From: Octopus vulgaris
Taxonomy: Eukaryota
Direction of reading: 5' to 3'
Assembly (NCBI GenBank): GCA_951406725.2
Contig: OX597814.1
Span: 142,290,001-142,354,000 of the forward strand
Length of the DNA: 64,000 bases
Shown: positions 9,150-54,722 of the stretch, piece after piece
How positions within the stretch are numbered: position 1 is the stretch's first letter
Layout of the letters: each line of letters begins with the position of its first letter
The notes under the pieces: generated by a model
The model's database searches: none
What the model saw: only the letters and a program-made list of their open reading frames with translations
Told to the model about the DNA's origin: nothing
Translations under genes and position numbers: made by a program

Positions 9150-11110
9150 GGCAAGTTCCTGGCCACGTCGCATTCGCTAGTACTGATAGGAGACTTTAAC
9201 ACAATCTGTGACGCACACACAAATTGTGTTGGCTCGAACATGAATAGAAAATGTAACCCTGGCTAACGGGATCTGCTAAGTCACTTTCAGCTGGCTGATC
9301 CATATAGGTTGGAACATCTGAACACTCCACAGGTGACGTGGTCAAATAGTGACGGGTCTTCCAGAACATATCTAGATATGATTTTAATTAGAAAAACAGA
9401 TAAGTCCATAGCTAAGTGTCCACAGTTTTATCTAGTCAGCTACGATGATCACAAGATGGTTACCTGTAAGCTGACAGTAGATAAGTTGCATAGACAGGGA
9501 TCTGGCTAATGGAAACTCAATACATCCCTTTTGGCAATTGAGGAGTACAGAAAGCGGATCGAGATGTTAATAAGAGGGCATTGACAGGTACCATCATTAA
9601 TAACAATAGGCCTTGTCTTCCTCACGTGGTTCATCACTCTGTATCACAACATTGACTCGATAGCTCGGGTGAACGGTTTCCTTTGGAAACCGTTCTACAT
9701 CAGTTGCTCGGTTCGTCAAGGATGTCCGCTCTCACCACTTTTACATGTGGTGGCTCTTGAACCCCTACTGCGAATGTTGAGTGGCAGCCCGAAAGAACCA
9801 GGTTTAAAGGAGTTTGTTACAGCTTATGCGGACGATATCACTATCAGCGTAACCACAGTAGCACGCTTACGTGAAGTGTGTAAGGATATTGAGGTTTACG
9901 AGACGATGGCAGGAGCAAAGATTAACCAGGAAAAGTCGGTCGGCTTGAAGCTCGGCACCTGGGTTGGCAAGTCGATGCCTTCAGACAGCGTTGTTGGGCG
10001 CTAGACAGAGGGACCGGTTAACTTGCTGGGAGTCTGGTTTGGACCAGGCCTCCAGATAGAGAAGAACTGATGGAGGTTTCGAGCAGGGTGGCTGCTGTAG
10101 TCAAGACCTGGTCTTGGCGGTGGCTATCCCTGAATGGGAGGACGGAGGTGGCCAATGTGTTTATCGCATCGGTCATTACGTACCGCTTGTCCGTCGTGCC
10201 CTGTCCGGATTCGTGGTGGATCAGGTTGGAGAGACAGCTCTTTCGCTTTTTGTGGAAGGGCAAGTCGCCACTTGTGAAACGCTCTGTCTGTTGTCAAAAG
10301 CCATTAAAGGTAGGTTTAGGGATGCCTTGGTTAATGATGCGCAGACATGCGATTGAGGTTGAGGCATCTCTGGATTCTCCTGGATGGGGAACGGGTGTGA
10401 TCTCCGCTGGCCAGAAAAATGTCCCCCGAGTTCAAAAGTTTTTGCAAACAAGAAGCCTGGTGTTTTCGTAGACCGAGATCGAGCGAGTGGCAAAAAGAGT
10501 GTCGTAAGGCCCTCCTGCTATCCCGGCGCTCGGACAACGCCAACGGTGTGGGTTCTACACGAATTTTATATAGTGGGTTGATCGAGTCTGAATGTGACGA
10601 AGGCCTGGGAGCGACCGGAAGTTTTAACAAACGAAGGTAAGAATTGTTTTCTCACGGTTGTAGCGATAACGAAAGAAGCAGTATGGAAGACTAGGATAAA
10701 AGAGATTAAGACAGGCAACATTATCTCCGGCCACGATTTACGATCATTTTTTACTTTTCATTTGAAAAGGAAGGTGTAGCTGGAGAAGAGGTGTCTGTCG
10801 GAGAGTATGTACAAAAAGAGATGGAAACATGTTGCACGAGTGTTGTGCGTGCACGGAACCGTGTCAATAGGTTATAAAAGAAGAACAAAAAAAAAAAGGT
10901 ACCAGCGATAGTTCGGGGCTTTTGGGGTCGGAGCGTGTCCTGATCATCGCTACATTTGTGTTGTCTCTGTATTGTTAATTTCATTCGATTTTTTAAAATG
11001 TTATATAATTTTTATATTCATATTTTATGTAAAATCATAACGTATTACTGATCCCAATCAGTTGTTTTGTCCATTTCTGTATTTGGCCCCATGTGGGCCA
11101 TAAAGAAATT
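9150..11110 (+). mobile_element. decayed, internally deleted Tx1-clade (L1 group) LINE: APE endonuclease, partial RT, 3'UTR
   Basis: SLVLIGDFN, TWSN..SRTYLD, DDHK, G*WKLNTSLL (APE); VRQGCPLSPLL, AYADDIT, GAKINQEKS, LSLNGRTEVAN, KVGLGMP (RT and downstream); KEAVWKTR C-terminus. Contains stops and frameshifts. Confidence 0.92.
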
Positions 11111-11290
11111 GGTATTTCGTCTGCGGTTATGTTCTGAGTTCAAATTCTGCCGAGGTTGACTTTGCCTTTCATCCTTTCGGGGTCGATTAAATAAGTACCA
11201 GTTACGCACTGAAGTCGATGTAATCGACTTAATCCCTTTGTCTTTGTTTGTCCCCTCTATGTTTAGCCCCCTGTGGGCAATAAAGAAATA
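11111..11290 (+). mobile_element. headless SINE-A unit with alpha (Tx1-like) tail, fused to the Tx1 3' end
   Basis: Begins GGTATTTCGTCTGC directly after the LINE end TAAAGAAATT; ends TTTAGCCCCCTGTGGGCAATAAAGAAATA. Confidence 0.85.
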
Positions 11291-11310
11291 AATTTTAGAT
11301 AGTTCAGTTG

Positions 11311-53228: not shown

Positions 53229-54024
53229 CAGTAGTTCTCAACCATTTTCTTAAAAACCTATATGATGCCTTAGACTGCGATTTTATTCTGGTGGCCCCCA
53301 TAGTTATACAAAGCTAGTTTTATAGACACTTCTTTCAAAATTCCCATTTTATTTTTCTCACGTTTATTTGTATAGGTTTGCAAAAGGCCTCAGTGAGAGA
53401 GCGTGTTTCAGTTGCTGGAAATATGTTAAACTATTTCTTTTACTTGTTTCAGTCATTTGACTGTGGCCATGCCGGAACAGCACCTTTAGTCGAACAAATC
53501 GACCCCAGGACTTATACTTTATAAGCTAATTCTACTTATTCTATCGGTCACTTTTTGCCTAACTGCTAATGAAACGTAAACACACCAACATCGGTTGCCA
53601 AGTGATGGTGTTGGAGGGGACAAACACAGACACAAACACACACACACACACACATATATATATATATATATATATTTGACAAGCTTCTTTCAGTTTCCGT
53701 CTACCAAATTCAATCACAAGGCTTTGGTCGGCCCGAGGCTATAGTAGAAGACCAAGGTGCCACGCAGGGGGCTGAACTCGGAACCATGTGGCTGGCAAGC
53801 AAGCTACTTACCATACAGCCACTCCTGCGCCGATATGCAAAACATTAGAAAAAGAAACCTAGCTGTTTCTTGCAATAAATACATCTAACGCAAATTTTTT
53901 TATGGACCCTTAAAATACTTCTGTGAATCCCCAATTTACTATTTTGCTTAAATGGGCCCTTAAAATTCTTATATGACACCCCCACCTATCTAAGGTTCAT
54001 ATGGACCCCAATTCAAAACCACTG
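53229..54024 (-). mobile_element. hAT MITE with a nested full CORE SINE (53435-53831, minus)
   Basis: Ends CAGTAGTTCTCAA / TTCAAAACCACTG; TSD CATTAAAA / CATCAAAC; shares AAAATAGTAAATTGGGGA and TTGCAAGAAAC..TAGGTTTC with 41523-42138. Confidence 0.8.
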
Positions 54025-54308
54025 CATCAAACAGACTAATGATGGCTTGAACATGTGTCGTCATAAGTTTGTGCAAGCAGGAATGACCTGGAGCTAAACG
54101 GCGATAATATCACAATTTACAAGCCAAAAGGAGAACCTGTGTGTCAGTCATAACGAAGATTTGTCTCGAATTGTTTTGGTAGTACGACCTGTATGATGAT
54201 GAGCTATGTCTCGTGCGGGCCGCTTCTCGAAAAAAGATGTCTAAGCCTGCTCTATGTTGTCGATCAGCCTACTAGATATAGCAGCCAAAGCTCCCTCAAA
54301 TTAGATTC

Positions 54309-54722
54309 TTATTTCTTTATTGTCCACAAGGGGCTAAACATAGAAGGAGCAAGCAAAGACAGACAAAGGGACTAAGTCGATTACATCGACCCCAGTGTGA
54401 GCTGGTACTTATTTAATCCACCCCAAAGGATGAAAGCTAAGTCAACTTCGGCGGAATTTGAACTTAGAACGTAGCGGCAGATGAAATACCTATTTCTTTA
54501 CTACCCACAAGGGGCTAAACCCAGAGGGGACAAACAAGGACAGACGAACGGATTAAGTCGATTACATCGACCCCAGTGCGTAACTGGTGCTTAATTTATC
54601 GACCCCGAAAGGACGAAAGGCAAAGTCGACCTCAGCGGAATTTGAACTCAGAACGCAGCGGCAAACGAAATACCGCCAAGCATTTCGCCCGGCGTGCTAA
54701 CGTTTCTGCCAGCTCGCCGCCT
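54309..54722 (-). mobile_element. SINE-A dimer, both units alpha-tailed, 13-bp TSD
   Basis: TSD CCCTCAAATTAGA at 54293-54305 and 54725-54737; junction at 54490/54491. Confidence 0.92.

What the first reader, a model, noticed from the sequence alone, without database searches (positions are those of the whole stretch)
10975..54722. Possible self-targeting SINE/Tx1-LINE system: seven junctions at one SINE position
Seen: the SINE-A alpha tail (TTGTCTGTCCTTGTTTGTCCCCTCT.TGTTTAGCCCCTTGTGGG..ATAAAGAAATA) resembles the end of the Tx1 LINE 3'UTR (11060-11110, also 2725-2780). Wherever this tail is followed by another SINE unit, that unit is headless and starts at the same internal position GGTATTTCG: junctions at 14578, 14762, 17698, 27076, 45126 and 54490. 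The LINE's own 3' end is joined to the same position at 11110/11111. The junction forms a small inverted repeat, GAAATA-GG-TATTTC. The terminal units differ (alpha tail, beta tail, or more diverged), which argues against a single dimeric master copy. Established: many Tx1-clade LINEs are sequence-specific (targets include U2 snRNA, 5S rDNA, tRNA spacers and other transposons), and SINEs borrow LINE 3' tails. Inference: this Tx1 endonuclease prefers a site inside the SINE it mobilises, so the SINE seeds new targets for itself and its LINE; homology at the 5' junction could explain the single head. Caveat: alpha-tailed copies with ordinary TSDs (49811, 54309, 17468) show that targeting is not strict.
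Basis: partly seen in the sequence, partly recalled or inferred. Interest (0 to 1): 0.8.

Follow-up and report, generated by a model that had tools for sequence, protein, structure and literature searches.

The report
SINE that lands inside older SINEs
In this genome (probably an octopus), young copies of a short mobile element are joined at one exact spot to older copies of the same element, likely because the LINE enzyme that copies them inserts there, which would make a mobile element its own preferred landing site.

Summary
The seven junctions exist. Six are independent, because the trimer's inner units share private changes. Only alpha-type tails precede a headless unit (6 of 10 SINE alpha tails, 1 of 2 LINE tails, 0 of 13 other SINE ends), always at SINE position 44. 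The alpha tail is homologous to both LINE 3' ends (0 of 1000 shuffles). First units and heads are young (5.8% and 5.0% from consensus). Terminal units are older (11.6%, p=0.0005), 15-26.5% apart and carry four kinds of end. This argues against one dimeric master and fits repeated insertion into existing SINEs with replacement of the head, as in R2. The site is the loop edge of a 13-pair RNA-type hairpin. Public reads and contigs show a tail-to-body joint in all 4 runs laid but gave no genome-wide fraction. LINE targeting rests on one locus, which has no upstream head or credible TSD. The LINE is L1-group; 'Tx1' was not confirmed by a named hit. Endonuclease specificity, RNA-guided priming and RNA-level chimeras are not separated. 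Verdict: probably a new variant of sequence-specific Tx1-type targeting (0.57).

The parts
8928..10875 (+). Decayed L1-group LINE ORF2 (APE endonuclease, RT, C-terminus) with stops, frameshifts and two large deletions
   Evidence: tblastn and HMM against full-length relatives, residues 54-1142; RVT_1 E 1.9e-14; multi-copy by read depth
10876..11110 (+). LINE 3' UTR; the last ~48 nt are homologous to the SINE alpha tail and carry a stem-loop
   Evidence: 0 of 1000 shuffles; fold z -3.1 for 11060-11111
11111..11290 (+). Headless SINE unit starting at position 44, with the older alpha tail subtype, joined to the LINE 3' end
   Evidence: 8 of 120 body differences from consensus
14763..14996 (-). 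Trimer unit 1: head, body, alpha tail (young)
   Evidence: 6 of 120
14935..14964 (-). Example of the 13-pair head hairpin (9 Watson-Crick, 4 G-U); the junction site is the first base 3' of the 4-nt loop (14947)
   Evidence: folds; sequence
14579..14762 (-). Trimer unit 2: headless, alpha tail, shares private changes with unit 1
14430..14578 (-). Trimer terminal unit: headless, old, non-alpha end
   Evidence: 19 of 120 differences; decayed flank duplication 13 of 16, reached by 35 of 1000 shuffles
17466..17698 (+). Dimer D17 first unit; head has the compensatory GCG-TAGC-CGT variant
17699..17883 (+). Dimer D17 terminal unit, alpha tail; 21-bp TSD (2 mismatches) round the whole dimer
   Evidence: 0 of 1000 shuffles
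27077..27316 (-). Dimer D27 first unit; tail ends in a doubled GAAATA; 5' flank is a TTA microsatellite
26905..27076 (-). Dimer D27 terminal unit, headless, non-alpha tail
   Evidence: 12 of 120
44906..45126 (+). Dimer D44 first unit (young)
   Evidence: 4 of 107
45127..45268 (+). Dimer D44 terminal unit, headless, beta tail, internal deletion; no TSD found
   Evidence: (11 of 93)
54491..54724 (-). Dimer D54 first unit (young)
   Evidence: 7 of 120
54310..54490 (-). Dimer D54 terminal unit, headless, old alpha tail; 13-bp perfect TSD round the whole dimer
   Evidence: 17 of 117; 0 of 1000 shuffles
49812..50013 (-). Young alpha monomer with an ordinary ~20-bp TSD, inserted outside a SINE (counter-example to strict targeting)
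2271..2779 (+). Second LINE remnant (RT trace 2271-2461, alpha-like tail 2720-2779) not followed by the site; interrupted by an old SINE
   Evidence: iE 2.6e-6

Best explanation
Young alpha-tailed SINE copies are joined by their 3' end to position 44 of older SINE copies, likely because an L1-group (probably Tx1-type) LINE protein that recognises the shared tail primes reverse transcription at a nick in that position, and the copied head then likely anneals to and replaces the target's own head. Step 1 (shown): the SINE and the LINE share a 3' tail. Step 2 (inferred): ORF2 binds the tail and nicks the bottom strand at TTAGC^GGTATTT inside a genomic SINE of any tail type. Step 3 (inferred): reverse transcription starts at the tail's GAAATA end, so the 3' junction is precise. 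Step 4 (inferred, R2 precedent): the full-length cDNA pairs with the homologous 43 nt upstream, which hides the TSD and overwrites the head. Step 5 (inferred): the SINE has no four-T terminator, so transcripts of such dimers would run into the downstream unit, and this read-through could pair with the primer strand and sharpen targeting, as proposed for R1. Targeting is a preference, not a rule.
For: Only alpha-type tails precede the site: 6 of 10 SINE alpha tails and 1 of 2 LINE tails, against 0 of 13 other ends. The 2 tandem pairs with a non-alpha first unit keep the second head. Terminal units are older than first units, 66 of 570 against 34 of 587 differences, p=0.0005; each pair taken alone is significant in 3 of 5. 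Heads are as young as first units (12 of 240; p=0.74 against first units, p=0.004 against terminal units). Heads are alpha-type in 3 of 3 composites with non-alpha ends, against 0 of 7 non-alpha monomers (p=0.008). Terminal units already differ from the young consensus at 20 of 150 positions in the first 30 nt, so no long donor tract crosses the junction. GGTATTT is intact in 3 of 3 non-alpha terminal units but in 1 of 9 non-alpha monomers (p=0.018). The joint 11291 to 11127 (tail end back to where beta-type bodies begin to align) is in 4 of 4 runs laid: 89 and 106 reads, 11 and 17 contigs. That is at least 0.3% of alpha-tail depth, against 0.006% for random landing on one SINE position (genome size assumed).
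Against: The LINE copy has no SINE head upstream (best scores no better than shuffles) and no credible TSD (best candidate 8361-8383, reached by 9 of 500 shuffles). It differs by 13% from 14 listed contig pieces of its family, against 6.7% for the SINE unit it should post-date; this may be pairwise or subfamily distance. The second LINE end is off-site. D54 keeps a perfect 13-bp TSD although its terminal unit is 14.5% diverged. In D17 the terminal unit is no older than the first (7 against 9 of 120) and they share a private change. All 5 heads are young, so head replacement must be nearly obligatory. The hairpin at the site has 4 G-U pairs, which points to RNA structure rather than DNA recognition. 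The AU test does not reject a clade of terminal units (p=0.069). The letters between the two sides of the read joint were not given. The consensus used for ages comes from the window alone and is dominated by young units.
Confidence: 0.57

Rival explanations
1. RNA- or cDNA-level chimera (U6/L1-like). A SINE RNA is cut, or reverse transcription stalls, at the hairpin loop. It is ligated to, or the enzyme jumps to, the 3' end of an alpha RNA or LINE RNA. The chimera then inserts as one unit at a new site.
For: The junction lies exactly at the loop edge of a 13-pair G-U-rich hairpin with a compensatory variant. Heads follow the first unit. TSDs enclose whole dimers in D17 and D54. No head lies upstream of the LINE. 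RNA-ligation chimeras are known for L1 (10.1101/2025.02.02.635956, abstract).
Against: Terminal units are older and 15-26.5% apart, which would need a different old source each time. The 5' partner always has the alpha tail while the 3' partner has four kinds of end, although the 3' end should pick the enzyme. The SINE has no terminator that would give free RNA ends exactly at GAAAUA (sequence). A doubled GAAATA at 27077 looks like slippage at the start of reverse transcription (inference).
Confidence: 0.18
2. One or a few dimeric source genes, spread by retrotransposition, with homologous template switching, gene conversion or unequal exchange swapping the second unit. The junction arose once or a few times.
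For: The young tail subtype is followed by the site in 6 of 7 copies against 0 of 3 of the older subtype (p=0.033). Adjacent units share private changes in the trimer and in D17. AU p=0.069.
Against: The two alpha-ended dimers have terminal units 18.8% apart. Target-type differences begin 6-14 nt after the junction in the four old terminal units, too close for ordinary homologous exchange. The LINE tail keeps its own letters to within ~10 nt of the junction.
Confidence: 0.15
3. Reverse order: SINEs insert at the end of an existing alpha tail (SINE or LINE) and are 5'-truncated at the hairpin.
For: Fits the LINE locus (LINE looks more decayed, no upstream head) and D17.
Against: Predicts terminal units younger than first units; the opposite holds in 4 of 5. 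No duplication of the tail end follows the non-alpha terminal units. Microhomology between the tail end and the hairpin's 5' arm would keep the loop, which is absent.
Confidence: 0.07

Closest known systems
SINEU-3 / Tx1-Mar of crocodilians (PMC4494074, passages read)
   Same: A SINE and a Tx1 LINE share a target preference for a site inside another transposon. The preference ranges from 90% to 13% among SINEU families. Tandem copies arise by sequential insertion.
   Different: There the target is a Mariner DNA transposon and tandem copies are separated by a TSD. Here the target is the SINE family itself, so the 5' junction is seamless and each insertion would rebuild one target site.
Xenopus Tx1 in Tx1D; Keno in U2 genes; Kibi and Koshi in microsatellites (as summarised in PMC4494074)
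   Same: APE-type L1-group elements with a fixed site in a multicopy sequence.
   Different: None of the targets listed in the passages read is a SINE mobilised by the same LINE. Clade membership of the window's LINE was not resolved by a tree with named Tx1 sequences.
R2 with upstream 28S sequence (PMC3774820) and R1 with read-through and tandem arrays (PMC2718515); passages read
   Same: Proposed cDNA-target heteroduplex giving uniform 5' junctions; read-through RNA pairing with the primer strand; arrays growing at the 5' end.
   Different: R2 has another type of endonuclease, and both target rRNA genes under concerted evolution, not about 1e5 dispersed, diverging SINE copies.
U6/L1 and Alu/L1 chimeras (10.1101/2025.02.02.635956, abstract and outline only)
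   Same: A full 5' RNA joined to a 5'-truncated 3' element within one TSD.
   Different: From recall, the fixed point there is the 5' partner's end and the 3' partner is truncated at variable places. Here the 3' partner's start is fixed and it is older than the 5' partner.
Octopus tRNA-derived SINEs OR1/OR2 and SINE superfamilies with exchangeable tails (PMC4824008, PMC4758252; passages read)
   Same: tRNA-like head, shared body, several tails borrowed from LINEs.
   Different: No published consensus could be compared, so the family name is open.

Membership tests
L1-group non-LTR retrotransposon | ORF2 with N-terminal APE endonuclease, RT and C-terminal region; closest solved relative L1 ORF2p | tested here: met
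   Window fragments map to residues 54-1142 of full-length relatives. The best relative P0001 matches L1 ORF2p at E 1.7e-74 against R2 at 9e-18.
Tx1 clade | RT groups with named Tx1 elements rather than other L1-group clades | tested here: inconclusive
No hit carried a Tx1 name. L1-Tx1 families are reported in O. vulgaris (PMC13282606).
Target-specific Tx1 family | More than 20% of copies flanked by one type of sequence (criterion of PMC4494074) | tested here: inconclusive
   LINE: 1 of 2 ends in the window; the read tables were crowded by SINE rows. SINE alpha tails: 6 of 10 in the window; genome-wide only bounded at 0.3% to about 46% of tail depth.
Target-specific Tx1 family | Endonuclease nicks the target site | not testable with these tools
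   Needs biochemistry.
Target-specific Tx1 family | Target sequence and TSD at the LINE's 5' junction | tested here: not met
   No head between 6110 and 9200. The copy is decayed and another repeat abuts its 5' end, so one locus decides little.
tRNA-derived SINE | tRNA-like head with A and B boxes | tested here: met
   Head aligns to the window's tRNA-Gln (6 of 1000 shuffles as good); ARAGORN at a relaxed threshold calls tRNA-like folds in 3 of 3 copies. No informative Rfam hit.
tRNA-derived SINE | Dispersed high copy number and TSDs | tested here: met
   Depth about 116,000 at 1.9 Gb read, roughly 165,000 copies if the genome is 2.75 Gb. Clear TSDs in 6 of 11 elements tested.
SINE-LINE pair with shared tail | Homologous 3' ends with a conserved stem-loop | tested here: met
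   0 of 1000 shuffles. The same CCC-loop-GGG hairpin is predicted in both, but is significant only in the LINE (z -3.1 against 0.0).
Dimeric SINE family with one master | Second units co-inherited and as old as first units | tested here: not met
   11.6% against 5.8%; a clade in 0% of 200 bootstrap trees, AU p=0.069.

The most novel reading that the evidence does not exclude
A LINE-SINE pair has evolved to use the SINE itself as its main target. The SINE makes about 1e5 harmless landing sites for its LINE and for itself. Each insertion overwrites the old copy's promoter head with a young one and yields read-through RNA that guides the next insertion. A compensatory hairpin variant that destroys the site (3 of 7 young heads) acts as self-immunity.
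Probability: 0.3. Interest if true: 0.8.

Novelty: new variant of a known kind. Interest (0 to 1): 0.55.

Why it matters
Known Tx1 targets are RNA genes, microsatellites and other transposons. A SINE that is both passenger and target of the same LINE would be a feedback loop: it would lower the cost of insertion, renew Pol III promoters on old copies and bias age estimates of SINE waves in octopus genomes, where SINEs make up about 12% of the DNA (PMC13282606). It also offers thousands of natural events for reading how the 5' end is joined in APE-type retrotransposition, and possibly a new target specificity. The claim can be tested directly on existing chromosome-level assemblies.

Tried and rejected
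No whole genome is held for the window. An alpha-tail motif found 0 matches in the metagenome, viral and genome collections, and a SINE-body motif found 0 in metagenomes. Protein searches found no close copy of this LINE, only relatives up to about 56% identical over short stretches, and none named Tx1. The single read-laying run (27) was swamped by SINE rows: loose ends at the LINE 3' end and any orthologous empty site were not shown (15 of 1251 joints and 24 of 4427 loose ends listed). Three look-ups of earlier findings returned nothing. Rfam gave one chance hit. The whole first unit does not fold better than shuffles (z -0.5). A TSD candidate for the LINE composite (8361-8383) was set aside as weak (9 of 500) and without a head beside it. 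Recombination between the two GAAAT words (tail end and head) was rejected because it would keep the loop letters. Inverted insertion primed by tail-target pairing was rejected because 0 of 12 tail-like ends listed are followed by an antisense head. The recollection that Kojima 2018 covers octopus SINEs was wrong: CoeSINE is coelacanth.
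Full report
Setting. The window is AT-rich (37% GC), microsatellite-laden animal DNA without long ORFs. I take it to be octopus from recall of the SINE; no call names the organism. No whole genome is held, so the work rests on the window, one read-laying run and the literature.

Observation. A BLAST with one SINE unit gave 37 hits, and 24 units were aligned. The SINE has a tRNA-like head, a 120-nt body and several tails. The 9-mer is exact in 4 of 7 and varies by 1-2 letters in the others. A scan of body starts on both strands gave 32 rows; 7 are preceded by a tail, and all 7 tails are alpha-type. By tail: 6 of 10 SINE alpha tails and 1 of 2 LINE tails are followed by the site, against 0 of 13 other SINE ends (p=0.002). 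Two tandem pairs whose first unit is non-alpha (13556/13781 and 12084/12282) keep the second head. Trimer units 1 and 2 share two private changes, so I count six independent junctions.

The LINE. 8928-10875 is a decayed ORF2 with APE, RT and C-terminal parts. Its best full-length relative is closest to human L1 ORF2p among solved structures. No hit was named Tx1, so Tx1 is plausible but unconfirmed; L1-Tx1 families are reported in O. vulgaris (PMC13282606, passages and supplement search). Read depth of about 200-830 over the ORF2 bins at 1.9 Gb read implies several hundred to about a thousand copies if the genome is about 2.75 Gb. Its last 48 nt align to the alpha tail better than all 1000 shuffles, as does a second LINE end at 2720-2779. 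Both predict the same small hairpin, significant only in the first LINE tail.

Ages. Against the closer of two leave-one-out consensuses, first units differ at 34 of 587 positions and terminal units at 66 of 570 (p=0.0005). Pair by pair the terminal unit is more diverged in 4 of 5, significantly in 3; D17 is the exception. Terminal units are 15-26.5% apart and end in four ways. The tree of 18 of the 24 units (six short or gapped ones left out) is star-like: terminal units form a clade in 0% of 200 bootstrap trees, but the AU test does not reject one (p=0.069). Heads are young (12 of 240) and alpha-type even on non-alpha terminal units (3 of 3 against 0 of 7). Terminal units carry 20 differences in their first 150 positions, beginning 6-14 nt after the junction in the four old ones. 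Caveat: the consensuses come from the window and favour young units.

Flanks. TSDs enclose the whole dimer in D17 (21 bp, 2 mismatches) and D54 (13 bp perfect). The trimer has a decayed candidate (35 of 1000 shuffles), D27 sits in TTA repeats and D44 has none. Enclosing TSDs are expected both from insertion into an older copy and from a chimera, so they do not decide. The intact D54 TSD leans slightly to a chimera, the decayed trimer TSD to insertion. No SINE head lies upstream of the LINE.

The site. In intact young heads the junction base is the first one 3' of a 4-nt loop closing a 13-pair stem with four G-U pairs (5 of 7 fold fully). Three of 7 young heads carry a T-G to G-C compensatory change that also alters the first base of the site. 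GGTATTT is intact in 3 of 3 non-alpha terminal units but 1 of 9 non-alpha monomers (p=0.018), which means either target selection or overwriting by read-through RNA. The tail end GAAATA is complementary to TATTTC just inside the site (chance about 0.5%). It mimics the hairpin's 5' arm, and I cannot explain its role.

Beyond the window. Reads of two raw DNA runs (label C) and contigs of two runs (labels A and B) were laid on 8950-11780 (4 of the 24 runs listed). Contigs of A and B match the unique flank with 1 and 0 differences, so they are the same or a very close species. A joint from the tail end (11291) back to 11127, where beta-type bodies begin to align, is in all four runs (89 and 106 reads from 62 and 72 starts; 11 and 17 contigs). 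The intervening letters were not given. This one register is 0.3-0.4% of alpha-tail depth, about 50 times the 0.006% expected from random landing on one position. Depth arithmetic caps the dimer share at about 46%. Loose ends before 11111 have the head as consensus (agreement 0.83), so most position-44 starts are ordinary headed copies. LINE flanks were not resolved. LINE contig pieces differ from the window copy by 13% on average (14 pieces), more than the 6.7% of the SINE unit beside it. That counts against the LINE being the younger, unless the figure is a pairwise or subfamily distance.

Mechanism. Independent formation at one site is well supported (about 0.8). In target-primed reverse transcription the tail-recognising enzyme joins the RNA's 3' end to the downstream target (established), which is the asymmetry seen: fixed tail type 5' of the junction, varied and older sequence 3' of it. 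The single young head needs annealing of the cDNA to the homologous upstream target, as proposed for R2 (PMC3774820, passages). Read-through pairing with the primer strand and 5'-growing arrays are described for R1 (PMC2718515, passages). I give this 0.57, RNA-level chimeras 0.18, masters plus recombination 0.15 and tail-targeted insertion 0.07. Whether the specificity lies in the endonuclease or in read-through RNA cannot be told. The young monomer at 49812-50013 and the second LINE end show that targeting is not strict.

Known systems and novelty. The closest case is SINEU with Tx1-Mar, which share a preference for Mariner-N4_AMi (PMC4494074, passages). Nine paper searches on the theme surfaced no report of a SINE-LINE pair targeting that SINE, and none of octopus SINE dimers; I judged most hits from listings only. 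The library lacks most subscription papers, Repbase Reports and Dfam. The supplement of PMC13282606 held no sequence match, and those of PMC8967140 were listed but not read. PMC3747384, PMC5786205, PMC4824008 and PMC4758252 were read as passages and did not name this SINE. Verdict: a real pattern, probably a new variant of Tx1-type target preference, with the LINE part resting on one imperfect locus.

Noticed in passing
window 15338-15411 (+): A tRNA-Gln(TTG) gene by ARAGORN; it shares A- and B-box regions with the SINE head.
   Followed up: partly
window 4217-5053: Element with 153-nt inverted arms (77% complementary) round a reading-frame remnant that looks mariner-like (label recalled; no Pfam hit).
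   Followed up: partly
window 11296-11498: A 5'-truncated non-alpha SINE with a perfect 15-bp TSD, inserted about 20 nt after the headless unit.
   Followed up: partly
window 17466-17520, 27262-27316, 57447-57517: Three young heads share a compensatory change in the head hairpin that also removes the GG start of the junction site; a candidate self-immunity variant.
   Followed up: partly
window 17466-17883: Both units of dimer D17 share a private C-to-G change although their tails are of different subtypes; suggests conversion between adjacent units.
   Followed up: no
window 12075-14160: Dense cluster of old SINE copies, including head-to-tail pairs and a 30-bp internal tandem duplication at 12327-12396.
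   Followed up: partly
window 30227-31103 (-) and 32356-32915 (+): Two further reverse-transcriptase remnants, more distant from the L1-group profile.
   Followed up: no
window 6200-6760 (-): Reading-frame remnant resembling the C-terminal end of a restriction-like-endonuclease LINE (recalled; no Pfam support), between TTA microsatellites.
   Followed up: no
window 8524-8900: A different repeat (SINE-like) abuts the 5' end of the LINE and may hide its 5' junction.
   Followed up: partly
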